From Bacteroidota bacterium (GTDB taxonomy: Bacteria > Bacteroidota > Ignavibacteria > 0-14-0-80-59-12), in contig JBMFJZ010000001.1 of assembly GCA_049973045.1 (NCBI GenBank), positions 473,363-537,362 of the forward strand: a DNA stretch of 64,000 bases, read 5' to 3'. Positions within the stretch are counted from its first letter, which is position 1, and every line of letters starts with the position of its first letter. The translations under genes and the position numbers were made by a program. Under the pieces are notes generated by a model that saw only the letters and a list, made by a program, of their open reading frames with translations, was not told the origin of the DNA and did no database searches. Below, piece by piece: positions 16,401 through 62,339 of the stretch.

Positions 16401-17169
16401 AATTTATCTCAACAAATACCTTGTCGAATTCTTGAAGGGTTCTTGTCGTGCCTTCGGGTGGAATTGGAGAATTCTGATCCGTCAGCGCCGCACGTATGCT
16501 GATATCGTCCGTAAGTTTTCCTGAAAGCTGTAGGCGAAAATTTGACGTTACACTCAGATCTTGATTTGACCCGACGCTGATGCCACGACTCAGGCTCCCG
16601 CTCCGAGAAAGATTCGACCCAAAAATCTCATTGATTCGAAATGGCTCAGAAGAGAAGAACATAGCTGAATCTCGTCTCATTGAATCGGTGAAGACCAACC
16701 CACCTCTGGCGGACTGAACAAAATGCGTTTTTATAAATGGTTGTACAGTTCTTAACTCGAGACGGAGAAAATGTGAGGAAGCCACGGCATGCAGCGAATC
16801 AATTGGAGAAATAATACGGCGATATAGCTCAGGTCGAAGATGCAATGTGCTTGTCCCTGTGTCAATCGTAAACTCGCTCCCTTCGACAAGGAGCAATGAA
16901 TCGAGGTAAACAGAAAGGGATTGCTTGCCTGTGTGGAGCTGGAAAGACGCCGGCAGAGGGACGATCGAATCGCGAAGAGCAATTGTATAAGAGAAAACAG
17001 TACCTTTATCATCCGACACGTTAGAGGGGACGGATCCGAGGGGCTGCTCCGCCTGCGCAAAGTTAGCTGTGGTGGAGAGCAAAGAAATTCCGCACAAGAT
17101 CGTCAAAAAAGGTCTGTGCAAACCTTCCCAGGCAATGGCGGGACCCGCTGTACGGCCATTTTGATGCAT
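13465..17169 (-). CDS. Large (1234 aa) secreted outer-membrane beta-barrel-like hypothetical protein
   Basis: Signal peptide; C-terminal ...VRAFF with terminal Phe typical of OM beta-barrels; beta-rich composition. ATG at 17169 (the listed GTG start is at 17187). Confidence 0.6.
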   Translation of the reverse strand: MHQNGRTAGPAIAWEGLHRPFLTILCGISLLSTTANFAQAEQPLGSVPSNVSDDKGTVFSYTIALRDSIVPLPASFQLHTGKQSLSVYLDSLLLVEGSEFTIDTGTSTLHLRPELYRRIISPIDSLHAVASSHFLRLELRTVQPFIKTHFVQSARGGLVFTDSMRRDSAMFFSSEPFRINEIFGSNLSRSGSLSRGISVGSNQDLSVTSNFRLQLSGKLTDDISIRAALTDQNSPIPPEGTTRTLQEFDKVFVEINSPRVAATLGDFDLLRTNGEFAKVQRRLQGAEMRISLGGVLRNASDGILQNMSASLQESGTGIDISAAVARGKFTTNQFNGLDAVQGPYQLTGANGERGIVVVPGSERVYINGELMLRGATDDYTIDYSLAQITFTVKRPITAASRISVDFQYVDRKFTRTFAGVEAISDVAGFHFGLSYYREADNPDSPVDVSLSDSDRAVIAAAGNNPLAASKSSIQYVGVDSLTGIPKGRYKLVDTLINGTVRRILRYSPGDPGALYNATFSYVGNGRGDYARQQIGEYVYVGPSAGSYLPIVLLPLPEMHQLADISFAWDGGSLLHAEGEYAFSSFDPNRLSAIANEQNSGHAFRVGVSLKPARIQIGSTVLGEIGASISDRYYGATFRPLDRVQAVEFNRIWDITDTLPGSKNVALGEIIYQPLKVVRILNSFGFLTLGSGLTSSKLSASLLIGTDTARIVDYKIDYVRRRGDMALRSSSWWRQYATAQLDAGFIKPSFHFEMEDRREYGTDTLTRKNVLSSTSFRFYEIGPQVVIPILSRSLLHLSGFFRVDEIPDGDRFARQSTSVGYGASWRFANSIGVSSSLDLTKRSRRFSGLARSSSGDVNTLLIRSVSQYHDKKNILASDLYYEFSAERAAKLERVFLRVERGSGNYAYLGDLNHNGVADDNEFVPVRFDGEYVPVTVPSDRLYPVSSVKSSLRVRFAPSRSFGAPRSSDRFIQKVLRSISSETYIRVEEKSMDPHLSNLYLLRLSTFLNDSTTLTGMDLFSQDVYLLENNSFFSARGRFLIRRSMSQFASFIERSGLREHSLRFLLKPLEEFSLQLEYLHRVNRLNSTPSTSLGTGTTSGRTYDVSGDAGLFDFSYRPQQDIEFGLHIEVGENRNQSTAPVQIADINVEGIRFVRSIAGRGQFRAELNREEVNLSPSAAGLFELTNGRLPGVHYLWAIGGDLRFAGFMEATFRYDGRTDQSNRVINSVRMEVRAFF

Positions 17170-17377
17170 GGCTTGATTCCAGTGCACAAACTACAATCCT
17201 CATCAGCCATTTAAGTATGGTCGTAGCAACGGGACGACGAACTTGACCTCTTGGGAAAAATCAGTTATATTTTATTTACGATGCTCTTTTGAATCAAGCA
17301 CCGTAATTTAATCTACAAAGATTGAACATCGAACACAAGTGGCACCAAGGCGCCATCTTTTAGCAGTCGTTTTGCAT

Positions 17378-39099: not shown

Positions 39100-40596
39100 T
39101 CATTGTGTCCCATCATGGCAATCACTGCATAAAGATGTTCTCCACGAATCTCCTATGTCAACCGGATGATTGAAGGGGACTCCTGAAAGATTTACGTCAT
39201 GAACGGGATTGTTCCCTTGCGAAAGTATAATATGACAAGTCTGACAATCATTAGAAATTATCTGACCATCATTGCTCTTATGTTTGCCGTCATGGCAACG
39301 GAAGCATCCCGGATTACTGTGATGACCTATGTTGTCCCGGTACGCACGCCAGTCAACTCGCATGGATGGGAAAAAATTTTCTCGATAAATAGACTGTAGA
39401 GAGGCAATGGCAGAATCAATAGCCAGTCTCCGAGAAATGTAAATGTCGGGGTAGTTTTGTCTATAAAAAGTTTGCACATATAAGGCGATACTGTCAAGAG
39501 CATTCTCTGCGGTCGTGTAACGAGGAATTAAGGCTTGCACAGAAACTTGCTTAATAAGCGGGAGGTCACGGCTGATGCGATTTCTGGCAATCGCTTCGTT
39601 AACAGCACCGTTGGGAGTCTTGATTATGTGGGTGGGACGATTATGGCAATCCATACAGTCCATAGTGGAGATTTTTGCTTTCTGCACCTCCTCGAGAGAA
39701 ATTGGACTATCCTCAGAAATAAAAATAATTGGCTTGCGTCCCGGATATTCGAGGCTAACCCATGGTATAATTTGCTGTGCTGAATCAGTCGCAAAGTATC
39801 GGACTACCGCATTTGACACATGCCAGTGGACACCGGGGCGGGGTTCCTCCGTTATCATCCCGCTCCCAATCTTCAACAGCATATCGATAGTCCATGGCGT
39901 ATTAGCAGTGTCTGAAAGAAAGTACTCGTGAATGATCCTCTTCTCACCGAGGAACGCCCTTGGCCAGTGGCATTCTTCACAGGTTTCACGGGCAGGGCGC
40001 AAGTTTTTAATAGGGGTTGGGATGGGGCGAGGATACTTATTGAAAACTGTAGCGTAAATCTGGTATGCGCCGGACAGCTTTGATCGGACATACCAGCTTG
40101 CCCCAGGACCCACATGGCATTCCACACATGCTACTCGAGCATGAGGGGAGTGTTGGTAAGTTGTATATTCAGGCTTCATCACTTTGTGACATGTCAGACC
40201 ACAGAACTGAACCGATTCTGTATACTCAAAAGCACGGTAACTCCCCACCGCGCTAAAAAGGAGAAGAACAAGTGTTGTAATTGAGAAAAAGAAAAACACG
40301 GAACGTTGCCTCGGATCATTGAGGTCAATCCTGGGCAGAGGAGGCTTCTCCACCCCAGCCATACGATGCCGACGACGGCGTTCGATCAATGCCCCAAGGG
40401 GAACGATAAATAAACCAAGAAGGAGAATGGCTGGAAGCAGAATGTACGTAATGAGACCGAGATAGGGCGCCGTTGCAGTGGTAACCAAATCAACGAGCAT
40501 GAGGAACACAATCATTGCAAAGCTTACAGCCGCGATGGCGCCACCAACAAGGCTAATTGGATTATATAGAATATCTGGCAACCTTTTCTTCGTCAT
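39100..40596 (-). CDS. Membrane-anchored multiheme cytochrome c (NapC/NrfH-superfamily-like, about 7 heme sites)
   Basis: Two N-terminal TM helices. Six CxxCH motifs (CVECH, CEECH, CMDCH, CFRCH, CQTCH, CSDCH) plus one CGLTCH (CX3CH). GAGGTG RBS. Confidence 0.8.
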   Translation of the reverse strand: MTKKRLPDILYNPISLVGGAIAAVSFAMIVFLMLVDLVTTATAPYLGLITYILLPAILLLGLFIVPLGALIERRRRHRMAGVEKPPLPRIDLNDPRQRSVFFFFSITTLVLLLFSAVGSYRAFEYTESVQFCGLTCHKVMKPEYTTYQHSPHARVACVECHVGPGASWYVRSKLSGAYQIYATVFNKYPRPIPTPIKNLRPARETCEECHWPRAFLGEKRIIHEYFLSDTANTPWTIDMLLKIGSGMITEEPRPGVHWHVSNAVVRYFATDSAQQIIPWVSLEYPGRKPIIFISEDSPISLEEVQKAKISTMDCMDCHNRPTHIIKTPNGAVNEAIARNRISRDLPLIKQVSVQALIPRYTTAENALDSIALYVQTFYRQNYPDIYISRRLAIDSAIASLQSIYRENFFPSMRVDWRAYRDNIGHHSNPGCFRCHDGKHKSNDGQIISNDCQTCHIILSQGNNPVHDVNLSGVPFNHPVDIGDSWRTSLCSDCHDGTQ

Positions 40597-44182: not shown

Positions 44183-45424
44183 ATGATGCGTGTTCGATTG
44201 GCTTTTTTCTTCACCGCTTTCGTTCCACTTATAAGTTTTTCTACAGGTGGAGGCTCACCCTATTCACGACTTGGGTTAGGTGACCTTCGATATTTTGCTG
44301 GGACGGCAGCAATTGGAATGGCAAATACCGGCATTGCCGTTGTCCATCCTAATGAGATCAGCGCACTTAATCCTGCAGCTTGGGCTGGAATTCACAGAAC
44401 GCGCTTCGACGTTGGCTTTCTCTATGAGGGATTCCAAACAGACGATCAACAAGTGAGCGTGTTCCAGAGCTCTGGGAATTTCAGTGGTCTTCTCTTTGCC
44501 ATCCCAGTAGCTCCCAGCCAGGGATTAACTGTAGCTGGAGGATTCTTGCCTTACTCGACGATGAATTACAACATCGAGACCTCCGTCTCGCTTTTCTCCA
44601 CGCCTGCTATTTCTCACTATTATGGAGATGGCGGAATTTCTATAGCTACCATCGGTTTTTCATACGACCTCATGTCGGATTTTCATATTGGTTCGCGATT
44701 TAACTACATTTTCGGAACGCTGGGATTCAACACTTCTCTTTCGTTTCCTCAAGCTAATGAACTCTTTGGAGGAACAGCACGAAAGGAGCTCAGCACCTAT
44801 GGAGTTAACTTTACACTCGGTGCAGTTGTCGATAGCCTTGGCAAACTTCTTTCGATGAGATTACTGAGGTCCGCATCGATTGGCTTTATCATCACAACAC
44901 CGAGCAAACTCAATCTTTCGAGAGTGACATATTATACGTATGCTCAGAAAAAGGATACAAGTGCCACGTCATCGTCAAGCGTTGATCTTCCATTCTCATT
45001 GGGTATCGGCATAGCTTTGCCGATTGCTCAGCGAACACTTCTCGCAGCGGATTTCTTCACTCAACCCTGGTCGAAGTCCAAGCCCTTGAGCCCCTCATCA
45101 CCGTTTGAAAATCTCCATCGCATTGCTCTCGGAATTCAACGTTCTCCCTATATCGAACCGGGTGCAGCCTATTTTGATCGAAGTGAATTTCGTGCTGGAA
45201 TATTTTATTCAACGCTCTATGAGACTGTAAATGGGAACAGCCTTCGTGAGTACGGGCTGAGCGGAGGCATCGGCTTACCCCTTTCAAGCGGAACAATGAT
45301 GCGAATTTCTGTGGAATACGCTCGTCGGGCACCGGAAGGGGAAAATCTTATAAATGACAGAATAATCCGGCTCGGCATCATGATCAGTGCCAGCGAACGG
45401 TGGTTCGTGCGTCCCGAGGAATGA
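44183..45424 (+). CDS. FadL/OmpP1/TodX-family outer-membrane transport protein (hydrophobic compounds)
   Basis: Signal peptide; hatch-like N-terminus GGGSPYSRLGLGDLRYFAGTAAIGMANTGIAV...NPAAW (the NPA motif region of the FadL family). Confidence 0.5.
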   Translation: MMRVRLAFFFTAFVPLISFSTGGGSPYSRLGLGDLRYFAGTAAIGMANTGIAVVHPNEISALNPAAWAGIHRTRFDVGFLYEGFQTDDQQVSVFQSSGNFSGLLFAIPVAPSQGLTVAGGFLPYSTMNYNIETSVSLFSTPAISHYYGDGGISIATIGFSYDLMSDFHIGSRFNYIFGTLGFNTSLSFPQANELFGGTARKELSTYGVNFTLGAVVDSLGKLLSMRLLRSASIGFIITTPSKLNLSRVTYYTYAQKKDTSATSSSSVDLPFSLGIGIALPIAQRTLLAADFFTQPWSKSKPLSPSSPFENLHRIALGIQRSPYIEPGAAYFDRSEFRAGIFYSTLYETVNGNSLREYGLSGGIGLPLSSGTMMRISVEYARRAPEGENLINDRIIRLGIMISASERWFVRPEE

Positions 45425-54427: not shown

Positions 54428-55723
54428 ATGAAGTCTCGATCGATTGCTTTCCTTCTCGTATTTGCACTCGCAACTGGCAATGCTCAGAGAGTAGACTACA
54501 ACAAGTTTTTCACTGAGAAGCGCATGCGAATTGATTACTTCCATACGGGAACAAAAACGGAGGAATTTTTCAGCATTGACCAAGTCTATGAGGAACCGGT
54601 GTGGGCTGGCAGTCGAACGAATCTCATCGACACGCTCAACCTGGGCACGTACCAAGTGCGTGTCTACGATCTGGCAACAAATCAGCTTATCTATTCTCAC
54701 GGATTTTCAAGTATCTTCGGCGAATGGAGGACCACCGACGAAGCTGCCCAGAATGTCTTCCGAACGTTTTCTGAATCTGTTCTTATCCCTTACCCAAAGT
54801 ATCCAGTTCAGCTCGTCATAGCCGCACGAGATCGCTGGAATCATTTCATTGAAAAATGGAATTTTAGCATTGATCCTTCATCACGGTTCGTCAATCGGAC
54901 TCCACATGGGCAAAATATCCCGTACACGACGTGGATGAAAAACGGCGCCGAAGCAACGCACGTTGATCTCGCCGTACTTGCTGAAGGATACACAAAAGAA
55001 GAGATGAAAAAATTCCAGAGCGATGCAGATCGGCTGCTGAAAGTCCTCTTCTCCACCTCACCTTACGATACAATGAGACAGGCGTTCAACGTGTACCTCG
55101 TCGAGACTATTTCATCGCAGTCGGGCACTGATGAGCCGCGTGAAAATGTGTGGGTAAGTACAGCCCTGGAAACCACGTTCAATTTCTTTGACCTCGCTCG
55201 TTACCTTATGACAACAGATAATAAGACAATGCGGGACGATCTCGGGTCAATCCCTTATGACGCAATTATCATACTTGTGAACACCCAGAAATATGGAGGC
55301 GGAGGCATTTACAATCTTTATGCGACCTGTCCCTCCGATAACCAGTGGTCAAATTACGTCTTCGTTCATGAATTTGGCCATTCGTTTGCCGGCTTAGGAG
55401 ATGAATACTACACGTCAGAGGTCACATATAACGAGTTTTATCCTCGTGGTGTCGAGCCCTGGGAACCAAACATCACCGCACTCCTTAATCCGACGGAACT
55501 GAAGTGGAAAGACCTGGTTACCGCTGGCACCCCCATCCCAACGCCACCGGATTCAGCAAAGTATCCTTTCCCGACTGTCGGGGCGTTCGAAGGCGCTGGA
55601 TACGCAGCAAAAGGCTTATACCGCCCATCGATCGATTGCATCATGTTTTCAAAAACGTTGAACAAGTTCGACCCGGTATGCAATCGAGCAATACGGAGAG
55701 TTATCGAAAGTTATCGAAATTAA
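54428..55723 (+). CDS. Secreted peptidase M64 family (IgA-peptidase-like zinc metalloprotease)
   Basis: Signal peptide; HEFGHSF zinc-binding HExxH; M64 N-terminal domain-like sequence. Confidence 0.7.
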   Translation: MKSRSIAFLLVFALATGNAQRVDYNKFFTEKRMRIDYFHTGTKTEEFFSIDQVYEEPVWAGSRTNLIDTLNLGTYQVRVYDLATNQLIYSHGFSSIFGEWRTTDEAAQNVFRTFSESVLIPYPKYPVQLVIAARDRWNHFIEKWNFSIDPSSRFVNRTPHGQNIPYTTWMKNGAEATHVDLAVLAEGYTKEEMKKFQSDADRLLKVLFSTSPYDTMRQAFNVYLVETISSQSGTDEPRENVWVSTALETTFNFFDLARYLMTTDNKTMRDDLGSIPYDAIIILVNTQKYGGGGIYNLYATCPSDNQWSNYVFVHEFGHSFAGLGDEYYTSEVTYNEFYPRGVEPWEPNITALLNPTELKWKDLVTAGTPIPTPPDSAKYPFPTVGAFEGAGYAAKGLYRPSIDCIMFSKTLNKFDPVCNRAIRRVIESYRN

Positions 55724-55793
55724 TGCCCGGTGTTGATGGACATCTATGAACACTGCAGGGATTCGTTCCGTTCAAGAGTAATAAGGCACGCTT

Positions 55794-58700
55794 ATGAAAC
55801 AATTTCTTGTTAAAGTCCTCTGTGCGTTACAGCTCGTAGGCTTTATCTTTGTAGCACTAACAGTGTTCACCTCTTTTTCTCAGCCCGAGGCTGATCCTCC
55901 TATGGCTGAGATTTCACAGGCTCTAACTGGTGACCTCCGGGGAGATCAATACTCATGGAGCTTTCTTTCCCTTTCAACGTGTGGAGTTGACCAATTTCTT
56001 GGCGAACATCCAACGTATGATGGGAGAGGCGTATTAATAATCATCCTCGATACTGGTGTCGACGTAGGCATTCCTGGGCTGATGAAAACATCCACCGGTG
56101 AGACAAAAATCATTGAAGTAAGGGATTTCTCTGGTGAGGGGGATGTTCCAGTTGAGAAAGCCATTCTGAACAAGGACAAAGGTGACAGCAGCATAAGACT
56201 CTCCGCTCCAGATAGCTCAATTAAGGTTGCGAACGTTCAGAAACTTCCGTTCAAACCGGCAAACGGTGTGTACTACATTGGAGTCTTCCGCGAAACGAAT
56301 TTTAAGAACGGGGCTGTCAACGATTTCAATGGAAACGGAACATCGGAGGATGCTTTTGCTGTCGTCGCGTTTCAGGTGGCATTGCCAAAAGTTGAAAAAG
56401 ATACCGTAAGTGATTCTATGAGGAGTGATAGTACCCAGTGGGTCGTTTACATCGACACGAACGGCAATGGCGATATTTCCGATGAGCGCCCATTGAGAGA
56501 CTACGAGCTGAACCATGATACATTCACGTTTGTCAGCAAGCCGCACAAAAAGCAAAAGGACCCTTTGACGTTAGCACTGAACTTTTATCCCCCGGAAGAT
56601 TCCGGAGATGGCAAAGTTTCAATTTTCTTCGACGATGGAGGGCATGGGACACATGTTGCTGGAATTGCAGCAGGGTACGAAATCAACGGGCAGCCAGGAT
56701 TTAACGGGGTAGCACCTGGGGCAAAGATCATTGCACTCAAAATTGGCAACAACACCTACTCAGGGGGTTCTACTCTCACAGGGAGCATGAAGCGAGCCTA
56801 CCTCTATGCCGCAACGCTCTCAAAGAAATACCACATGCCGACGGTCATCAATATGAGCTATGGCATCGGTTCCGAGATTGCTGGTCACAGCGACATTGAC
56901 GAATTCCTTGATAGCCTTCTGACAGAAAACGAAGACCTGGCGATCTGTGTTTCAGCAGGAAACAATGGCCCCGGCATTAGCTCCATCGGAACACCGGCAG
57001 CTTCCCAACTTGTCTGGACCTCGGGGGCACTATTTCCGAGAGAGACTGCGCGAGATGCCTACGGAATGGAGATGTTAGAGAACCGGATATTTTTCTTTAG
57101 CTCGCGTGGCGGGGATGTCCCAAAGCCTGACGCAGTTGCTCCTGGCGTTGCTGTCTCCACCGTGCCACATTTTGCGCATGGTGACCGAATGAACGGCACG
57201 AGCATGGCGTCTCCATACTCAGCGGGCGTCATGGCGCTCCTTCTAAGTGCTGTTAAACAACTCCACCCCGATATTACTCTCCCATTCAGACTGTTGAAGA
57301 AAGCCCTCTGGTATTCAGCAAAACCACTCCCGGGCTACTCAATGCTCGATCAAGGCCATGGGGTCCTTTCTGTCCCCGCTGCTTTTGACCTCTTGAAAAA
57401 ACTCATCGACAATAATGCTATCAAAGAAACCATTGACTACGAAGCGTTCACTGAAAGTCCAATCTTCCCTGATAATGAGGGACATACTGCATACTGGAGA
57501 AGCGTCTATTTTCCGCATGGAGAGTTAAAACAAACTTTCCACGTGAAGGGATTGTACCCTGAATGGATGAGCGAGAAAGAAAAACAGCTCTTTTTTCGGG
57601 CTTTTGCTATCAGATCAACTGCCGATTGGCTCAAGCCAATCGAGCATCTGACTTATCTTCGTGGGTCCCAGTTAGCCACAGTTACCGTCAAGTACGAGAC
57701 AGCTAAACTCGCGAAGCCCGGACTTTACACAGGTAAGATTCTTGCTTTCCGTCGTGGGGCTCCAAAGCCGATCGCTGACGTTCCTGAATTTGAACTTCTT
57801 AATACCATCGTTGTACCCTACACTTTTGGACCAAACAATGGTTATACACTCACACTCGATGATTCTCTTGCAGGAAGCGGGGCTCTGAAACGGTATTTCA
57901 TCGCTGTGCCCCCAGGAGCAACAGCAATGAATGTTTCTATAGAAGCGCTTCAGGGCAGAGAATGTCATCTCAGCGCCGCTTTCTTCTTTAACCCTGACGG
58001 AAAGAAGCGCGGTGGTACGCCACCAATTGAAACACGTGATGGAATTTTGCAGTCAAGGTCCGCCATAGGCGGACGTGGAACCGAGCTAACGCCAGGCATC
58101 TGGGAAATTGACATTCTCTCAAACCTCGTCATACCTACACCATCGCAATACAGAATAACCATAAACTTCAATGGATTTACTCTTAATCCCTCGGGGATTA
58201 CTTCCCTGAACGAAGGCGGCCATAGGCAGACGGTGCTGGTGACGAACACCTTCTCAGCCCCCTTTACTGGCTCCGGCGTTGCTTCAATCTCGTCGTTCGA
58301 AAGAGAAATTATTGACACAGTAAGGAAAGGCGACCGATTCACTTACGCGTTTAGAGGCGATTCGCTCGTGAGCTCAGTCCGGTTCAAAATTGAAATGAGC
58401 CGGGAGGACTACAACAAATTCACCGATGTGCCCGTCAACATTTACAATGAGCAAGGTAAAGGGGTGTCAAGAGAAAGTTTGGAGGAAGCTCGTGGTGAAA
58501 TCTCCTTTACTTTCTCACCCGGAGATACCACATTGTACACCCTTGAAGTAATGGGAGCTTTCACAAACTACGACAGAATGACACCCTTTGTAGTTCGTAT
58601 CATAGAAAGTCGCGTGCTGAAGGACCCCGTACCGTTCAGTGTCACCTCAGGAGGATCGCATTTGATGACATTTTATCCTGATTTTCCTGTCGTGCTTGAC

Positions 58701-58823
58701 GTCAGCGCAAAGAAGCCGCTGCCGCAGCCTCCGTTCGGTTACTATCTTGCCGGAGAAGTGAGCGTCACCGACCGGAATGGAAATGTTGGATTTGTTATAC
58801 CAATTCGATTAATGAGTAGGTGA
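55794..58823 (+). CDS. Large secreted subtilisin-like serine protease (peptidase S8) with C-terminal beta-domains
   Basis: Catalytic triad contexts ILDTGVD (Asp), HGTHVAGIAAG (His), GTSMASPYSAG (Ser); signal peptide; 1009 aa. Confidence 0.85.
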   Translation: MKQFLVKVLCALQLVGFIFVALTVFTSFSQPEADPPMAEISQALTGDLRGDQYSWSFLSLSTCGVDQFLGEHPTYDGRGVLIIILDTGVDVGIPGLMKTSTGETKIIEVRDFSGEGDVPVEKAILNKDKGDSSIRLSAPDSSIKVANVQKLPFKPANGVYYIGVFRETNFKNGAVNDFNGNGTSEDAFAVVAFQVALPKVEKDTVSDSMRSDSTQWVVYIDTNGNGDISDERPLRDYELNHDTFTFVSKPHKKQKDPLTLALNFYPPEDSGDGKVSIFFDDGGHGTHVAGIAAGYEINGQPGFNGVAPGAKIIALKIGNNTYSGGSTLTGSMKRAYLYAATLSKKYHMPTVINMSYGIGSEIAGHSDIDEFLDSLLTENEDLAICVSAGNNGPGISSIGTPAASQLVWTSGALFPRETARDAYGMEMLENRIFFFSSRGGDVPKPDAVAPGVAVSTVPHFAHGDRMNGTSMASPYSAGVMALLLSAVKQLHPDITLPFRLLKKALWYSAKPLPGYSMLDQGHGVLSVPAAFDLLKKLIDNNAIKETIDYEAFTESPIFPDNEGHTAYWRSVYFPHGELKQTFHVKGLYPEWMSEKEKQLFFRAFAIRSTADWLKPIEHLTYLRGSQLATVTVKYETAKLAKPGLYTGKILAFRRGAPKPIADVPEFELLNTIVVPYTFGPNNGYTLTLDDSLAGSGALKRYFIAVPPGATAMNVSIEALQGRECHLSAAFFFNPDGKKRGGTPPIETRDGILQSRSAIGGRGTELTPGIWEIDILSNLVIPTPSQYRITINFNGFTLNPSGITSLNEGGHRQTVLVTNTFSAPFTGSGVASISSFEREIIDTVRKGDRFTYAFRGDSLVSSVRFKIEMSREDYNKFTDVPVNIYNEQGKGVSRESLEEARGEISFTFSPGDTTLYTLEVMGAFTNYDRMTPFVVRIIESRVLKDPVPFSVTSGGSHLMTFYPDFPVVLDVSAKKPLPQPPFGYYLAGEVSVTDRNGNVGFVIPIRLMSR

Positions 58824-59268
58824 TAATAGATTCAGGCTTTAAAATGGTGGCAAAACACGAGTGCAGAGGACGGTGCCCAGGCCGCTGCACCTTTAGCCCA
58901 ACTTGGTGGCTTCCTCTTCAGAGATAAAAAATAATCCCGTTCCACGCCCGAAGATCAAACATCCATCCTATGAGCTCGAGATTGCAATTCCATTTGGTGC
59001 TGCAGCACAAACGCGCGTCGATGCTCATTTTGTGTTGCTCATCAGACTGTGTGAAAAGCTAGTTTGCGCAACTTGAAAAACCTCCATTTCTAACCCTTCA
59101 ACCAGACGGTGATGGGCCTTTCTTTGAAGAGTTCAGTTGATAATGTGCCCCCTGGGCTTCTTGGTTAAGACATCGAAAGTAGACTATCTTCCATTCTGAA
59201 GCTCACCACTCAGAGCGCTCATATTCTTTGAAGAGCTATTACGTTTGTCAACTTTTTTGTCCCGCTAC

Positions 59269-59297
59269 TTGACAAGGTGTTTTTTTTGTTATATTCT
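59269..59297 (+). promoter_or_regulatory. Sigma70-like promoter (TTGACA, 17-bp spacer, TATTCT) upstream of the MauE-like gene
   Basis: TTGACA at 59269-59274 and TATTCT at 59292-59297, located in a 548-bp intergenic region (58824-59371). Confidence 0.35.
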
Positions 59298-59392
59298 AAT
59301 GTCGATAAAAATCACGGTTTTACTTGGTCTGAGCAGGCTGGTCGGAAGATTCTTGCAAAGGTTTCCTGGGCTTGCGTTCAGGTGGAGCAAAG

Positions 59393-59740
59393 ATGAAGGA
59401 TGTGTATGGCTTCTCTAAGATTGTCAGAGATTACCACATTCTGCCTCAGGCATTTGTAATTCTGTTTTCAAGTTTAGTAGCATTTGCAGAGTTTGTTTTA
59501 GGATTGATGTTAGTCCTGAATTACCTGCCGAAGATTTCAAGCTTAACGTTATTGCTTATGGTCTCAGTGTTTACCCTTTTTACTCTTCTTAGATATACCT
59601 CAGGCGACACATCTGAATGCGGATGTTTTGGGACACTGATCCACCGAGCAGTTGACTGGAAGTTCTTTGCAGAGAATACTATGCTCATCGGTGGATTGGT
59701 AGTAACAATAATAAAAACCACAAACAATAAGGAGGACTGA
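59393..59740 (+). CDS. MauE/DoxX-like small membrane protein with CGCFG motif
   Basis: Three TM helices and SECGCFG, the signature of the methylamine-utilisation MauE family (disulfide formation). ATG at 59393 (the ORF-track start at 59372 is TTG). Confidence 0.55.
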   Translation: MKDVYGFSKIVRDYHILPQAFVILFSSLVAFAEFVLGLMLVLNYLPKISSLTLLLMVSVFTLFTLLRYTSGDTSECGCFGTLIHRAVDWKFFAENTMLIGGLVVTIIKTTNNKED

Positions 59741-59743
59741 AAC

Positions 59744-59959
59744 ATGAGACGCATGAGCGTCGTCGCACGGCTGGTAATTGCGGCATTGTCCCTCTGCATG
59801 CTGGCAAGTATCGCTTTCGACTTAATCCCGGTAGCGACAGCCACCCAGGAAGCTAAATGCGGATTGATTTACTGCATTGATGGAAAGAAAAGTTACACAG
59901 GGTGTGCTCGAGATATGACAACCGATTGCGGCACAGCTGGAGCAAACTGTGATTGCTGA
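59744..59959 (+). CDS. Small secreted cysteine-rich peptide precursor (71 aa; 6 Cys in about 38-aa mature region)
   Basis: AAGGAGGA RBS 6 nt upstream. Signal peptide MRRMSVVARLVIAALSLCMLASIAF, then ...ATA/TQEAKCGLIYCIDGKKSYTGCARDMTTDCGTAGANCDC. Starts 4 nt after the MauE-like stop. Confidence 0.6.
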   Translation: MRRMSVVARLVIAALSLCMLASIAFDLIPVATATQEAKCGLIYCIDGKKSYTGCARDMTTDCGTAGANCDC

Positions 59960-60281
59960 AAATGGGGGGCGCCCTGAGAATTTTTCGGTATGCCCCCTCA
60001 ATATCACGCAGGTTGCCCGAGGAAGTGCACGGAGATGTTAAACGAGGGGATAGGCGATACGGTCCACCAGTGAGGCTGGGGAAGCTACTAGTTGGTTGAA
60101 GACTTCGCGGGAATCACACACATCAGTTGATCTGATGTAAATGGGTTTAAGCCTCGATCCCTTGCATACGACTCTTGCGCCGAGAAAGGGAACTGTGTAA
60201 ACGCCGGAGTGTCGTGGCAACCGAGACAAGATTCTACTTCTAAGGAATATCATCTATTAATATAGGCATGAGGACAAATCA

Positions 60282-61361
60282 ATGAAAAAGGTGAGCATTC
60301 ATTGCCTACTTGTGATATCAAGCAGCGTTTTATTGGTGTTCTTCTCAGCGGGCTGCACAAAAAGACCCTCTTCTCGGAGTAATCTTCCGAGGGAGACGGT
60401 TGAACGCCTTGCTGCCAAACACAGATTCGACGAGTTGTTCAGACCCGTTGGTGTCATAGAGCTTAGAACAGATTCAAGCCATTTAGTTGGAAGAGTTGAT
60501 GTGATGGCTTTTTTCAACAACGGAAATTTTGCCATTGGCGACAACGCTTCACATCAGATTTTGTTGTTCGACCGTTTTGGAAATTTCATCTCTCAGGTTG
60601 GAAAATTTGGCAGAGGCCCTGGAGAATATGTTCGTATTGCAAGCTTGGCAACAAACGATAGGAATGAGTTGCTTTGCCTTGATAACAGCTTGAACATGGT
60701 TTCAAGATTTGATTCAGCAGGTCGTTATGTGAACTCGTGCCAGGTAAAATACGGGTTCGTTCTTAAAACTGCAGAAGATCGAGGTTTTTACGTTTATAAT
60801 TACTTAACTCCACCTGAGAGCAAGAGAAATGTTGTTTTCAAATACGATTCCAGTGGAAATCTTGTGAAAAGTTTTGGTTCTCCCTGGCCAAAAGTTATCA
60901 TCGACCGAGTTCCCATTGGAGGTGGGGGGATGGCCCGTTTTGATAATGAAATTTTCATCATCCAAGCCTCGGAGTTCAAGGTTCGAAAGTATTCCAGCGA
61001 AGGCAGGTTCATAAAGGAATTCGGGAGAGATTCACCGGTTTACAAGCCTCTGCAGCCCCCGGTATCATTCTCTGACAGAGAAAAGTTGGAATCCTTCACA
61101 GCAGTCAGCTCGATTTTTGCACTTTCCCCAGGCGTCCTCGCTGTATTCCTCACAAGAACACAGCCCGCGTCCCAATGGATTGAACTCTTCGATAGAGAGG
61201 GAAATTTCTTAACCGGAGCAATTGAAGTGCCGCAGAACCTTGAGGTTTGTAGATCAGCCTATAAGGATATTCTCTACTTTGTTGAGTACCCTTCTCTGAT
61301 TCAGGGCTCAAAAGGCGGGTTCGCAAATCCTAAAATTCATGGGTATCAACTTATCCCGTAG
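60282..61361 (+). CDS. Lipoprotein with 6-bladed beta-propeller (NHL/TolB-like) repeats
   Basis: Signal peptide plus lipobox FFSAGC; repeated FD..G.FI..FG..G.GPGEY-type blades. Confidence 0.6.
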   Translation: MKKVSIHCLLVISSSVLLVFFSAGCTKRPSSRSNLPRETVERLAAKHRFDELFRPVGVIELRTDSSHLVGRVDVMAFFNNGNFAIGDNASHQILLFDRFGNFISQVGKFGRGPGEYVRIASLATNDRNELLCLDNSLNMVSRFDSAGRYVNSCQVKYGFVLKTAEDRGFYVYNYLTPPESKRNVVFKYDSSGNLVKSFGSPWPKVIIDRVPIGGGGMARFDNEIFIIQASEFKVRKYSSEGRFIKEFGRDSPVYKPLQPPVSFSDREKLESFTAVSSIFALSPGVLAVFLTRTQPASQWIELFDREGNFLTGAIEVPQNLEVCRSAYKDILYFVEYPSLIQGSKGGFANPKIHGYQLIP

Positions 61362-61380
61362 GTATCAAGCGAGAAGGCTA

Positions 61381-62001
61381 ATGGTCCATCGGAAAGCATT
61401 ATTTCAGATAATCACATCCGGAGTTCTTCTAATATTCGCAGCATATTCAGCATATGTGAATGCTCACCTGAAAAGGAAATTAGCAGAACAAACAACTACG
61501 ATAGATTCATTAACCTCGTACCAGAGGACGAGCACGTGGATTGACGACCGCGAGGGGGCACGTTTGCCGAACGATATCCTGAGAAATACTGAAGGAGATA
61601 CCGTAGGGCTTCTGCGTCTTTTGAAATTATCCGGTTACTCCATACTCGTGATTGAACCGGAGAATACGTGTAGTACTTGTCTTGAGACTACACTGGCTAC
61701 TTGGAAAAAGGCTTCTGCGTCCTCTTCTTTAGAACGGCAGCTCGGTTTCTTCATCGTTTCGATGGATGAAGGACGGCGAGCATATCTTCTGGCGCGGAAG
61801 TTCCAGCTGGAAAATCATTGTTACGTGGATAGAACCCGGGAACTTTCTAGCTTCCTTCCCGTTCCTCCAACTCTTCCCTTTGCTCTTTTCGCCGACAAGA
61901 ATGGGAAAGTTGTCTATGCTCAGGTCTTAAGTTGGAGATCGCCCGAACGATTTGTTAGCTTTCTTAAAAAAGTCGATCGCTACCTACGAGAGGAAATGTG
62001 A
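61381..62001 (+). CDS. Membrane-anchored TlpA/ResA/MauD-like thioredoxin-fold thiol:disulfide oxidoreductase
   Basis: N-terminal TM helix; ILVIEPENTCSTC CxxC motif in thioredoxin-fold context. ATG at 61381 with a GAGAAGG RBS, just after the upstream stop (the ORF-track start at 61339 overlaps). Confidence 0.6.
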   Translation: MVHRKALFQIITSGVLLIFAAYSAYVNAHLKRKLAEQTTTIDSLTSYQRTSTWIDDREGARLPNDILRNTEGDTVGLLRLLKLSGYSILVIEPENTCSTCLETTLATWKKASASSSLERQLGFFIVSMDEGRRAYLLARKFQLENHCYVDRTRELSSFLPVPPTLPFALFADKNGKVVYAQVLSWRSPERFVSFLKKVDRYLREEM

Positions 62002-62339
62002 CTCAAAGCTACCGGATCTTTTATTCAAGTTAGAGGATGCAGAGCATCGACTGCAACTGGACACAGGAAAGTTCAACCGCCGAGCCTAAGGGTCGACCAC
62101 AATGCATAACATCCAGCAATTAGATTTAGTCGGCAGGCTTGACGTTACGAAATCTGAACCGCACGGCCCACAGGCTCCGCTCGACATGTGCTCGTGTTGG
62201 TTAAGATTTCAGGCTGAGTAAATACCATGCTCCCTAACTGAAGTCGCAATATCGGATCCGCTATAATCACCAATGGCTTGGTTGTCGTACAGTTGCCCCA
62301 GAGTCTCAACCGGTAAACAACACGCAGCAGGGATGAACT

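What the first reader, a model, noticed from the sequence alone, without database searches (positions are those of the whole stretch)
59744..59959. 71-aa signal-peptide, six-cysteine peptide (KCGLIYCIDGKKSYTGCARDMTTDCGTAGANCDC)
This gene is short enough to escape routine annotation but has a near-perfect AAGGAGGA RBS and a Sec-type signal peptide with an AxA-like site (ATA). The mature region carries six cysteines, including a C-terminal CDC. Spacing such as C-x5-C-x9-C-x6-C-x6-C-x-C resembles knottin/defensin-like or bacteriocin-like scaffolds and has no obvious housekeeping role.
Basis: seen in the sequence. Interest (0 to 1): 0.7.

Follow-up and report, generated by a model that had tools for sequence, protein, structure and literature searches.

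The report
Exported six-cysteine peptide with own disulfide machinery
This is a real, conserved gene for a small exported six-cysteine peptide that sits in a four-gene cassette with its own disulfide-bond-forming enzymes and a beta-propeller lipoprotein; it is a rare, uncharacterised variation on a known theme and does not look like a knottin or defensin.

Summary
The 71-aa ORF at 59744-59959 is real. It has an AAGGAGGA RBS 7 nt upstream and lies 3 nt after the stop of the upstream gene. It is conserved under purifying selection (dN/dS 0.18 against an 85%-identical relative). Two distant homologs (about 45% identity over the aligned C-terminal part) keep all six cysteines. True spacing is C-x4-C-x9/10-C-x7-C-x6-C-x-C, usually ending CGC. 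NCBI already annotates it as a hypothetical protein, so it did not escape annotation.

The peptide is gene 2 of a conserved cassette: a MauE-like membrane protein (CGC active-site motif; MauE was recently shown to be a DsbB-like disulfide-forming enzyme), the peptide, an NHL/DUF5128 six-bladed propeller lipoprotein, and a membrane-anchored thioredoxin-like CxxC protein.

My best reading: Sec export, cleavage after a conserved P-x-A-T-A, then formation of three disulfides by the MauE to thioredoxin-like relay, with the propeller as docking partner.

No sequence or fold match supports a knottin or defensin, and the mature peptide is acidic to neutral. A bacteriocin-like role remains possible: one relative has tandem paralogs with hypervariable loops. 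No exporter or immunity gene is present. The family is very rare (three lineages). In this genome MauE has lost its first transmembrane helix through an 8-bp deletion.

The parts
59269..59297 (+). Promoter-like site (TTGACA-17-TATTCT) at the 5' edge of the conserved cassette. Similarity to the sister species begins around here.
   Evidence: Consensus scan. The T-rich/TATATTC block is conserved in L002 and L001 while sequence further upstream is not alignable. This is a consensus match only. It lies very close to the ancestral MauE ATG (59299), so the true transcription start is uncertain.
59299..59418 (+). Frameshifted remnant of the ancestral MauE N-terminus (first transmembrane helix). An 8-bp deletion between 59376 and 59377, relative to the sister species, throws it out of frame.
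   Evidence: DNA alignment with L002 and L001. Translation gives MSIKITVLLGLSRLVGRFLQRF... against L002 MSLKVTVLVVSDGLIGMLLRKF.... The same deletion is present in the independent MAG L012. Window-versus-L012 substitutions cluster in this stretch.
59393..59740 (+). MauE-like membrane protein, 115 aa from the ATG at 59393 (122 aa if from the TTG at 59372). It has an ECGCFG (CXC) motif and three remaining hydrophobic helices. It is the putative DsbB-like disulfide generator.
   Evidence: Pfam MauE E=5.8e-21, profile positions 19-126 of 128; also DoxX. NCBIfam BT_3928 family, N-terminal part. CGC at residue 76; the 149-aa full-length form is in L002. The function of MauE and its CXC active site come from bioRxiv 10.64898/2026.03.05.709764.
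59609..59716 (+). 3' third of the MauE gene with unusually conserved synonymous sites. It contains a promoter-like site (TTGACT-17-AATACT, 59652-59680) and is a candidate internal promoter or 5'-UTR for the peptide gene.
   Evidence: dS 0.30 here against 1.0 and 2.6 in the first two thirds of the gene; third-position identity 0.81 against 0.44-0.50. Promoter scan. The regulatory role is inferred, not shown.
59729..59736 (+). Shine-Dalgarno sequence AAGGAGGA of the peptide gene. It lies inside the last codons of MauE (stop TGA at 59738-59740), 7 nt before the ATG.
   Evidence: Sequence read. Identical in L001, L002 and L012.
59744..59842 (+). Signal/leader region of the peptide, residues 1-33: n-region MRRMSVVAR, h-region LVIAALSLCMLASIAF, c-region DLIPVATA with A-T-A at positions -3 to -1.
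   Evidence: Sequence and hydropathy profile. P-x-A-T-A is invariant in all five variants. This region evolves fast (dN 0.16, dS 1.0) as signal peptides do. No SignalP run was possible.
59843..59959 (+). Predicted mature 38-aa peptide TQEAKCGLIYCIDGKKSYTGCARDMTTDCGTAGANCDC plus stop codon. Six Cys, about 4.0 kDa, net charge -1.
   Evidence: Translation and spacing. Conserved CGL[IV][YW]C, TGCAR, CG and C-x-C-end motifs. dN 0.046, dS 0.24. Charge and pI.
59963..60000 (+). Stable G+C-rich hairpin just after the peptide stop codon. It may be an mRNA-stabilising or partial-terminator element at the start of the 322-nt spacer before the propeller gene.
   Evidence: RNA fold -23.9 kcal/mol, z = -3.1. 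Weak terminator-like match. The structure is not conserved in L002 and there is no Rfam match. Its role is uncertain.
60282..61361 (+). NHL-type six-bladed beta-propeller (DUF5128) with a lipoprotein signal (…VFFSAGC|TKRPSS). It is the conserved partner gene of the peptide.
   Evidence: Pfam DUF5128 E=3.7e-19. PDB sequence hits to NHL domains and to 4raa. 84% identical in L002, and 48% identical directly downstream of the distant peptide homolog in L007. dN/dS 0.13.
61381..62001 (+). Membrane-anchored thioredoxin-like protein with a C-S-T-C motif, 206 aa from M15 (an alternative upstream ATG at 61339 would give 220 aa). It is the putative DsbA/MauD-like disulfide carrier.
   Evidence: PDB 2m72 'thioredoxin-like protein' at E=0.0046 (single sequence) and 5.8e-4 (profile), with CSTC aligned on CKPC; the C-terminus aligns weakly to ResA. 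The CxxC and its surroundings are invariant between species. The N-terminal helix is confidently predicted. There is no Pfam hit, and the AF2 model of the domain failed (pLDDT 47).

Best explanation
The ORF is a genuine gene. It encodes the precursor of a small (about 38 aa, 4 kDa) disulfide-locked peptide made in the cell envelope, and it is the cargo of a self-contained four-gene maturation cassette.

Proposed mechanism:
(1) The gene is co-transcribed and translationally coupled with the upstream MauE-like gene, and possibly also has its own promoter embedded in the MauE 3' end.
(2) The N-terminal signal sends the precursor through Sec, and it is cleaved after the conserved P-x-A-T-A (between A33 and T34).
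(3) In the periplasm its six cysteines are oxidised to three disulfides by a dedicated relay. MauE, a DsbB-like quinone-linked enzyme with a CGC active site, re-oxidises the membrane-anchored thioredoxin-like CxxC protein, which passes disulfides to the peptide.
(4) The NHL propeller lipoprotein, always encoded next to the peptide, binds the peptide. It would act as a docking platform for the thioredoxin-like protein (a split version of the Trx-NHL architecture of NHLRC2/SOQ1), as a stable partner, or both.
(5) The folded peptide then acts outside the cytoplasm. I favour a competitive, bacteriocin-like or other ligand role, at about 0.3-0.35 on its own.

Shown here: gene reality, conservation of the Cys scaffold, the operon composition and its conservation, and the MauE CXC motif.
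Shown by others: MauE forms disulfides.
Inferred: signal cleavage, disulfide formation in this peptide, the role of the propeller, and the final biological activity.
For: Gene reality:
- RBS and coupling to the MauE stop codon.
- dN/dS 0.18.
- Homologs with identical Cys register found by exhaustive phmmer and by tblastn.

Cassette:
- MauE (Pfam 5.8e-21), peptide, DUF5128 propeller and a CxxC protein occur in the same order in the window, in a second MAG (L012) and in the sister species (L001-L006).
- All four genes are under purifying selection, dN/dS 0.13-0.32.
- The peptide-propeller pairing persists in a lineage whose propeller is only 48% identical.

Mechanistic precedent:
- MauE complements E. 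coli dsbB, needs its CXC (CGC) loop, and about 8% of MauE proteins are fused to thioredoxin-fold domains (bioRxiv 10.64898/2026.03.05.709764). The window protein has ECGCFG.
- The fourth gene aligns to a thioredoxin-like structure with CxxC on CxxC.
- Dedicated TM-protein plus thiol-oxidoreductase pairs flank Cys peptides in bacteroidetocin loci and are needed for activity (PMC6671954).
- mauE/mauD sit beside Cys-rich precursors in candidate Streptomyces RiPP clusters (PMC7794033).
- Trx-like domains work against the NHL propeller face in NHLRC2/SOQ1 (PMC6107167).

Product-like behaviour:
- Tandem paralogs in L007 have a conserved leader and scaffold (dN 0.11) but hypervariable loops 2 and 4 (dN about 1.0).
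Against: - In this genome (and in L012) MauE has lost its first transmembrane helix through an 8-bp deletion. MauE, like DsbB and VKOR, is described as a four-helix bundle, so the oxidase may be impaired here. The window peptide also carries the odd CDC ending.
- Whether MauE accompanies the distant homolog is unknown, because those contigs are only 1.6 kb.
- The thioredoxin-fold assignment is statistically modest (E about 6e-4, no Pfam hit, failed AF2 model). TlpA/ResA-type proteins are usually reductants, not oxidants (my own knowledge).
- In the distant homologs the conserved A-T-A lies about 22 residues after the hydrophobic core. That is atypical for signal peptidase I and suggests a propeptide or a different protease.
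- There is no exporter, immunity gene or outer-membrane secretion signal, so release from a diderm cell is unexplained. The peptides are acidic to neutral.
- No structure could be modelled confidently.
- Only three lineages exist, so the comparative power is low.
Confidence: 0.55

Rival explanations
1. The peptide is a small cross-linked subunit or tight ligand of the NHL propeller lipoprotein. Together they would form a periplasmic heteromer, built like methylamine dehydrogenase or quinohemoprotein amine dehydrogenase, where a small Cys-rich subunit matured by MauE/MauD sits on a beta-propeller subunit. On this view the peptide is not a released product.
For: - The peptide and propeller genes are adjacent in all three lineages, even at 48% propeller identity.
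- The cassette mirrors the four core roles of the mau cluster: propeller, MauE, a MauD-like Trx and a Cys-rich small protein (MauE/MauD background).
- The propeller's lipobox is followed by basic residues. By my own knowledge of Bacteroidota lipoprotein export signals, this suggests it faces the periplasm, where a Sec-exported peptide would end up.
- No exporter gene is present.
Against: - There is no sequence similarity to MADH light chains or QHNDH gamma subunits (PDB profile search empty).
- The window peptide has no Trp for a TTQ/CTQ cofactor.
- The propeller is a six-bladed NHL/DUF5128 type, not the MADH heavy-chain type.
- No MauG-like or radical-SAM maturase is in the cassette.
- Tandem paralogs with very different loops fit a diversifying product better than a fixed subunit.
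- A 322-nt spacer with a hairpin separates the two genes here.
Confidence: 0.22
2. The N-terminal hydrophobic segment is an uncleaved signal anchor. The product would be a tiny bitopic inner-membrane protein that displays a Cys-rich ectodomain, for example as a redox or metal-binding accessory of the MauE/Trx pair. Its cysteines (notably the C-terminal CXC, which mirrors MauE's own CGC) would be functional thiols or metal ligands, not structural disulfides.
For: - In P0004 the hydrophobic stretch is about 20 residues long and lies about 22 residues before the A-T-A, which is more anchor-like than signal-like.
- TlpA/ResA-type thioredoxins commonly keep cysteines reduced for cofactor or metal insertion (my own knowledge; TlpA/ScoI is cited within PMC6107167).
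- The C-terminal CGC matches the redox-active CXC motif defined for MauE.
Against: - In the window the h-region is only 16 residues, followed by a textbook P-x-A-x-A c-region.
- The P-x-A-T-A motif is invariant across variants while the flanks vary, which argues for a processing site.
- Six Cys at fixed spacing with hypervariable loops is the signature of a disulfide scaffold.
- There are no His, Met or other metal-site motifs.
Confidence: 0.12
3. MauE and the thioredoxin-like protein are simply this organism's general oxidative-folding pathway. On this view the small ORF is an unrelated neighbour whose Cys content is incidental to the operon.
For: The MauE preprint argues that MauE is a generalist disulfide-forming protein in many phyla. 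The locus sits in housekeeping chromosomal DNA next to uvrA.
Against: - A general pathway would be unlikely to tolerate loss of MauE's first helix in this species.
- The peptide start is 3 nt from the MauE stop and its RBS lies inside MauE.
- Gene order is conserved across species.
- At 6 Cys in 38 residues, the peptide is an obvious substrate.
Confidence: 0.08
4. The ORF is not a gene; it is a chance open frame in an intergenic region.
For: Short ORFs are abundant: 69 ORFs of at least 30 aa in 7 kb. There is no match to any curated family.
Against: There is a strong RBS. dN/dS is 0.18, with changes concentrated at third codon positions. Distant homologs preserve the reading frame, all six Cys and several motifs. 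Independent gene callers predict it.
Confidence: 0.02

Closest known systems
Bacteroidetocins (class IIf bacteriocins of Bacteroidota; Coyne et al. 2019, PMC6671954)
   Same: A small exported Cys-containing peptide is encoded between a multi-pass membrane protein and a dedicated thiol oxidoreductase. Those accessory genes are needed for active peptide. Both systems are in the same phylum, and the peptide genes are often poorly annotated.
   Different: Bacteroidetocins have a 15-16-aa double-glycine leader and a C39-peptidase ABC exporter, four Cys and 42-aa mature peptides. Here there is a Sec-type signal with P-x-A-T-A, six Cys, no ABC/C39 gene and an added NHL propeller lipoprotein. No sequence similarity to any curated family was detected. 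Homology of the membrane proteins was not tested.
mau cluster logic: MauE + MauD maturing the Cys-rich small subunit (MauA) of methylamine dehydrogenase, which docks on a beta-propeller large subunit
   Same: There is a true MauE homolog with the CXC motif, a membrane-associated thioredoxin-like CxxC protein, a small secreted Cys-rich protein and a beta-propeller protein, all in one operon.
   Different: The peptide is unrelated in sequence to MauA. It has 6 rather than 12 Cys and no Trp pair for TTQ. The propeller is the six-bladed NHL/DUF5128 type. There are no mauG/F/C/J/L/M/N-type genes. The resemblance is analogous, not orthologous.
MauE-centred disulfide-bond formation pathway (bioRxiv 10.64898/2026.03.05.709764)
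   Same: The upstream gene belongs to this family and carries the experimentally defined CGC active-site motif. It is paired with a thioredoxin-fold protein, as that work predicts.
   Different: That work describes MauE as a generalist DsbB replacement. Here it appears as a cassette-specific enzyme coupled to one peptide, and in this genome it lacks helix 1.
Candidate mauE/mauD-containing RiPP clusters with Cys-rich precursors in Streptomyces (decRiPPter, PMC7794033)
   Same: These are mauE (and once mauD) homologs found outside any methylamine pathway, next to a predicted precursor rich in Cys.
   Different: They are in a different phylum, their precursors have at least 8 Cys, no NHL propeller is reported, and they too are uncharacterised.
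NHLRC2 / SOQ1 (thioredoxin-like domain fused to an NHL six-bladed propeller)
   Same: A Trx-like CxxC-type module is combined with an NHL propeller whose 'cup' face is thought to hold the substrate next to the redox site. Here the same two modules are adjacent genes, 20 nt apart.
   Different: Here they are separate polypeptides. The active-site motif differs (CSTC against CC(I/V)NC). NHLRC2 was not among the PDB sequence hits of the propeller. The functions of NHLRC2 and SOQ1 are themselves unresolved.
Knottins / defensins
   Same: Both are small, secreted and have six cysteines.
   Different: There is no sequence-family hit and no PDB sequence hit. There is no significant Foldseek hit either, though the model was weak. 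The charge is acidic to neutral rather than cationic. The C-terminal C-x-C as the last three residues is not a typical spacing for these folds.

Membership tests
Sec/signal-peptidase-I secreted protein | Basic n-region, hydrophobic h-region of about 10-20 residues, and small residues at -3 and -1 of the c-region | tested here: met
   MRRMSVVAR / LVIAALSLCMLASIAF / DLIPVATA|T. This is a rule-based reading only. In the distant homologs the A-T-A is about 22 residues past the h-region, which is atypical.
Sec/signal-peptidase-I secreted protein | Positive call by a trained predictor (SignalP, DeepTMHMM) or an experimental N-terminus | not testable with these tools
   No such predictor or data were available.
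Knottin (inhibitor cystine knot) | Disulfide connectivity I-IV, II-V, III-VI forming a knot | tested here: inconclusive
   The AF2 model has pLDDT 63.6 and is too weak to read connectivity.
Knottin (inhibitor cystine knot) | Sequence or fold similarity to known knottin families | tested here: not met
   No Pfam or NCBIfam hit. The PDB profile search was empty. The best Foldseek PDB match has E about 3 and no hit was a knottin.
Defensin-like antimicrobial peptides | Cationic mature peptide | tested here: not met
   Net charge -2 to 0 and pI 4.4-5.8 in all five variants.
Defensin-like antimicrobial peptides | Defensin fold or family signature | tested here: not met
   No family hit, PDB sequence hit or significant fold hit. 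The fold test is weakened by the poor model.
Bacteroidetocin (class IIf bacteriocin) | Double-glycine leader of 15-16 aa | tested here: not met
   There is no GG motif before the core. The leader is a 33-aa hydrophobic signal ending A-T-A. Definition taken from PMC6671954.
Bacteroidetocin (class IIf bacteriocin) | Adjacent ABC transporter with a C39 peptidase domain | tested here: not met
   The cassette genes are MauE, the peptide, DUF5128 and a Trx-like protein. The flanking genes are an S8 peptidase and uvrA.
Bacteroidetocin (class IIf bacteriocin) | Flanking multi-pass TM protein and thiol oxidoreductase | tested here: inconclusive
   Both kinds of gene are present.
Methylamine dehydrogenase small subunit (MauA) system | MauE homolog with CXC motif in the operon | tested here: met
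   Pfam MauE E=5.8e-21. ECGCFG motif. It is truncated by one helix in this genome.
Methylamine dehydrogenase small subunit (MauA) system | Small subunit homologous to MauA, with the two Trp that form TTQ | tested here: not met
   No PDB sequence hit to MADH light chains. There is no Trp in the window or P0002 peptides.
Methylamine dehydrogenase small subunit (MauA) system | MADH-type heavy-subunit propeller and MauG | tested here: not met
   The propeller is NHL/DUF5128. There is no MauG-like gene in the locus.
NVEALA family (PF14055) small proteins of Bacteroidota | Match to the PF14055 profile | tested here: not met
   No hit at E<=10 for four peptide variants. The resemblance of the leader (DLAxVxLEAF) was only a recollection.
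SCIFF / ranthipeptide-type six-Cys RiPP precursors | Family HMM match and an adjacent radical-SAM maturase | tested here: not met
   No NCBIfam hit. There is no radical-SAM gene in the cassette.
Thioredoxin-fold oxidoreductase (for the fourth gene) | CxxC motif in a thioredoxin fold | tested here: inconclusive
   CSTC aligns on the CKPC of thioredoxin-like 2m72 over 123 residues, E=0.0046 (single sequence) and 5.8e-4 (profile). However, there is no Pfam hit and the AF2 model failed.

The most novel reading that the evidence does not exclude
This cassette defines a previously unrecognised class of Sec-dependent, disulfide-locked bacterial mini-proteins. Their maturation enzyme would be a 'split NHLRC2': an NHL propeller lipoprotein that captures the conserved leader or scaffold, plus a membrane-anchored thioredoxin-like protein. 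MauE would be the dedicated terminal oxidant. That would make it the first natural MauE substrate cassette outside methylamine dehydrogenase, and it would give DUF5128 propellers a function. The C-terminal CGC, identical to MauE's own active-site motif, might even be a redox-active element and not a structural disulfide.
Probability: 0.2. Interest if true: 0.7.

Novelty: new variant of a known kind. Interest (0 to 1): 0.45.

Why it matters
Small Cys-rich exported peptides with their own oxidative-folding genes are known in outline: bacteroidetocins, MADH maturation, and unproven Streptomyces clusters. MauE was shown experimentally to be a disulfide-forming enzyme only in 2026, and no dedicated non-MADH substrate has been described.

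This locus offers a compact, testable example with four genes and a 38-aa product. It also links two families of unknown role: DUF5128/NHL propeller lipoproteins, which by my own knowledge are common in Bacteroidota, and an orphan peptide scaffold with hypervariable loops. If the peptide is bioactive, it is a stable, engineerable scaffold from an uncultured lineage.

Three things limit the impact. The family is very rare, it comes from uncultured MAGs, and the oxidase gene is damaged in this particular genome.

Tried and rejected
- **Knottin/defensin fold test.** The AF2 model from the three-sequence alignment reached only pLDDT 63.6. Foldseek against PDB gave nothing below E about 3. This is inconclusive and leans negative.
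- **Thioredoxin-like protein model.** The single-sequence run gave pLDDT 47 and is unusable, so I fell back on PDB sequence and profile searches.
- **NVEALA (PF14055) idea for the leader.** No HMM hit; rejected.
- **SCIFF or other curated peptide families.** No hit.
- **Search for more family members.**
  - Word-indexed search with the single sequence and with a profile found only self and the 85% relative.
  - Exhaustive phmmer added one true distant homolog (P0004) and one spurious repeat protein (P0003).
  - The GTDB species-representative DNA scan found nothing with the peptide, and only an unrelated Eubacteriales NHL hit with the propeller.
  - The JGI metagenome scan returned only the loci already known.
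  - The viral contig scan found nothing.
- **Wasted search.** My last protein-database search, with the propeller, used too strict an E-value cutoff (1e-10). It returned only near-identical sequences, so I could not survey whether other DUF5128 propellers sit beside other small peptides.
- **RNA and defence checks.** No Rfam match in 58800-62300. The post-stop hairpin is not conserved in the sister species. No PADLOC hit.
- **Second peptide copy in the spacer or elsewhere in the window.** None found.
- **S8 peptidase upstream as a processing protease or inhibitor target.** Relatives' contigs end before that region, so it cannot be tested. It is not part of the alignable conserved block.
- **Literature.** Searches for DUF5128, NVEALA and BF3164 found nothing useful.
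Full report
**1. Observation**

Window 59744-59959 (+) is an ATG-initiated 71-codon ORF. It encodes MRRMSVVARLVIAALSLCMLASIAFDLIPVATATQEAKCGLIYCIDGKKSYTGCARDMTTDCGTAGANCDC. AAGGAGGA lies at 59729-59736, 7 nt before the ATG. It sits inside the last codons of the upstream gene, whose TGA stop (59738-59740) is 3 nt from the ATG.

The cysteines are at residues 18, 39, 44, 54, 62, 69 and 71. C18 lies in the signal region and is not conserved.

**2. Is it a gene?**

Yes, on four lines of evidence.
- The exact protein is already annotated in two NCBI Bacteroidota MAGs as a hypothetical protein (MGC9092053.1 and MGC8897488.1), so it did not escape annotation.
- An 85%-identical ortholog (P0002) occurs on seven metagenomic contigs.
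- Codon-by-codon comparison gives 15 synonymous and 11 non-synonymous differences. dN/dS is 0.094/0.53 = 0.18. The signal region evolves fast (dN 0.16) and the mature region slowly (dN 0.046).
- An exhaustive phmmer scan of 1.84 billion representative proteins found one further true homolog, P0004 (93 aa). It ends in CGLVYCITPWGSWTGCARTFTSSCGQYNNDCGC, with the same Cys register.

Reading P0004's contig showed that the partial gene just upstream is a second, tandem paralog...GLDLASVKLEAFIPSATAEDVRCGLVWCLLPSGYMTTGCARTFTSACGTPTWDCGC.

Across the five variants the invariant positions are P-x-A-T-A, C-G-L, C, T-G-C-A-R, T, C-G, C and C. Four of the five end in CGC. The window's CDC is a private change, because the 99%-identical MAG L012 has CGC.

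**3. Context**

The peptide is the second gene of a four-gene, same-strand block. The same order is found in the window, in L012 and in the sister species L001-L006, bounded downstream by a convergent uvrA. The relatives' contigs end just upstream of MauE, so the 5' boundary is not known there.

- **Gene 1 (59393-59740)** is a MauE-family membrane protein (Pfam E=5.8e-21). It has an ECGCFG motif.
- **Gene 3 (60282-61361)** is a lipoprotein with an NHL-type six-bladed propeller (DUF5128, E=3.7e-19). Its PDB sequence hits are NHL domains and 4raa.
- **Gene 4 (61381-62001)** has an N-terminal membrane helix and a domain that aligns over 123 residues to the thioredoxin-like protein 2m72, with its CSTC on the CKPC of 2m72. 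E is 0.0046 for the single sequence and 5.8e-4 for the two-sequence profile. The C-terminus resembles ResA.

All four genes are under purifying selection: dN/dS 0.32, 0.18, 0.13 and 0.28.

In the distant lineage the tandem peptides are followed by an ortholog of the same propeller at 48% identity. The gap is 12 nt by the gene call and could be up to about 70 nt with a later start codon. Those contigs are too short to show whether MauE and Trx genes are also present.

The surrounding window is ordinary chromosomal DNA: uvrD, pheT, thrS, glgA, glyA, RNase Y and uvrA. There is no viral or defence-system signal.

**4. What the neighbours imply**

- A 2026 preprint shows that MauE proteins replace DsbB in E. 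coli. They require their CXC (CGC) loop between helices 3 and 4. They are predicted to bind quinone, and about 8% are fused to thioredoxin-fold domains. The authors propose that MauE oxidises a DsbA/MauD-like carrier (bioRxiv 10.64898/2026.03.05.709764).
- In the bacteroidetocin loci of Bacteroidota, a multi-pass membrane protein and a thiol oxidoreductase flank a Cys peptide and are both needed for activity. The authors note that Bacteroides lack general Dsb machinery (PMC6671954).
- In Streptomyces, mauE/mauD homologs lie next to predicted precursors with at least 8 Cys in candidate RiPP clusters (PMC7794033).
- NHLRC2 and SOQ1 fuse a Trx-like domain to an NHL propeller, with the redox site facing the propeller's binding cup (PMC6107167).

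Taken together, the simplest reading is this. The peptide is the cargo. MauE and the Trx-like protein form its private oxidative-folding relay. The propeller is the docking partner.

**5. Proposed mechanism and its status**

- *Shown:* gene reality, the conserved scaffold, the conserved cassette and the MauE motif.
- *Shown by others:* MauE makes disulfides.
- *Inferred:* Sec export and cleavage at A33|T34 (rule-based only). Also inferred are three disulfides, peptide binding by the propeller, and an extracytoplasmic biological role.

A bacteriocin-like or ligand role is favoured for two reasons. The tandem paralogs keep the leader and scaffold (dN 0.11) but have hypervariable loops 2 and 4 (dN about 1.0 over 11 codons, a very small sample). 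The locus logic also resembles the bacteroidetocin loci.

Against that role: no exporter, immunity gene or outer-membrane secretion signal is present, and the mature peptides are acidic to neutral (net -2 to 0).

**6. Caveats specific to this genome**

An 8-bp deletion between 59376 and 59377 shifts the frame of the ancestral MauE N-terminus. The sister species has a 149-aa MauE. Here only 115-122 aa remain, and the first transmembrane helix is lost. The independent MAG L012 has the same deletion, so it is real and not an assembly error. Substitutions between the two MAGs cluster in the dead N-terminal remnant. MauE is also the most diverged gene of the cassette (60% identity). The oxidase may therefore be impaired in this species.

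In the distant homologs the A-T-A lies about 22 residues beyond the hydrophobic core. Their leader may therefore be a signal plus a propeptide, or an anchor.

**7.

- Pfam and NCBIfam scans of the peptide variants gave nothing. Pfam covered four variants and NCBIfam three at E<=10, plus the window peptide at E<=1. The only entries were two sub-threshold, chance-level Pfam hits. The L012 variant, which differs by one residue, was not scanned.
- The profile search of PDB sequences found nothing credible.
- The AF2 model (pLDDT 63.6, three short strands) is too weak, and its best Foldseek hit has E about 3.

Nothing supports a knottin or defensin, although the fold remains formally unknown.

**8. 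Rarity**

Word-indexed protein searches, the exhaustive representative search, and DNA scans of GTDB representatives, JGI metagenomes and viral contigs together yield only three lineages and five sequence variants.

I could not survey other DUF5128 neighbourhoods. My last protein search used too strict a threshold.

**9. Verdict**

This is a real small gene, and it is more interesting for its operon than for its sequence alone. It is a new variant of a known kind: an exported Cys peptide with dedicated thiol-oxidoreductase genes. What sets it apart is a Sec-type leader, a true MauE, an NHL propeller partner and an orphan scaffold. Interest is moderate (0.45). It offers a compact test case for MauE-dependent folding and for DUF5128 function, but the family is tiny, the organisms are uncultured, and the function is inferred.

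Noticed in passing
window 59299-59418 and 59376/59377: An 8-bp deletion relative to the sister species frameshifts the MauE N-terminus and removes transmembrane helix 1. The same lesion is in a second, independent MAG (L012). Substitutions between the two MAGs cluster in the dead remnant.
   Followed up: yes
window 59609-59716 (promoter-like site 59652-59680): The 3' third of the MauE gene has strongly suppressed synonymous divergence (dS 0.30 against 1.0-2.6 upstream). It contains a conserved TTGACT-17-AATACT match, which may be an embedded promoter or 5'-UTR for the peptide gene.
   Followed up: partly
L007 1-210 and 312-593 (also L008, L011): The distant relative carries at least two tandem paralogs of the peptide (67% identical). 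The leader and Cys scaffold are conserved and loops 2 and 4 are hypervariable. Loop 2 is 10 rather than 9 residues in one copy.
   Followed up: yes
window 59963-60000: There is a stable G+C-rich hairpin (-23.9 kcal/mol, z -3.1) immediately after the peptide stop codon. It has no clear U-tract, and the structure is not conserved in the sister species.
   Followed up: partly
L002 about 590-610 against window 59715-59728: A 10-bp tandem duplication (AACCACAAAC) at the very end of the MauE gene in the sister species changes the C-terminal tail (…KTTNNHKQ against …KTTNNKED), just upstream of the peptide's RBS.
   Followed up: no
L002 about 880-990 (peptide-propeller spacer): The sister species has an imperfect direct repeat (CTCAATATGATGCAGATGGTAT / CTCAATGTGACGCAGATGGTAT) in the spacer. 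The window has a single copy (CTCAATATCACGCAGGT at about 59998-60014). There is no Rfam match and the meaning is unknown.
   Followed up: no
window 54428-58823: A peptidase M64 gene (431 aa) and a large S8 subtilase gene (1009 aa) lie directly upstream on the same strand. They could process or be targeted by the peptide, but the relatives' contigs end before this region, so no link can be tested.
   Followed up: no
window 13465-17187 (-) and 44183-45424 (+): A 1239-aa ORF and a 413-aa ORF have no Pfam match at E<=1e-5.
   Followed up: no
window 39100-40596 (-): A 497-aa multihaem cytochrome c (NapC/NirT, c7 and c3 motifs) hints at a respiratory lifestyle with a quinone pool, which a MauE-type oxidase would need.
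   Followed up: no
window 59380-59392, 59729-59736, 60268-60274: Cassette genes have clear Shine-Dalgarno sequences (GGTGGAG, AAGGAGGA, GAGGA). By my own knowledge this is unusual for classical Bacteroidia and suggests a deep-branching Bacteroidota lineage.
   Followed up: no
L001 2184-2801: The pipeline's gene call there (a 116-aa gene on the minus strand) hides an intact 206-aa thioredoxin-like gene on the plus strand. This is an annotation artefact, not a gene loss.
   Followed up: yes
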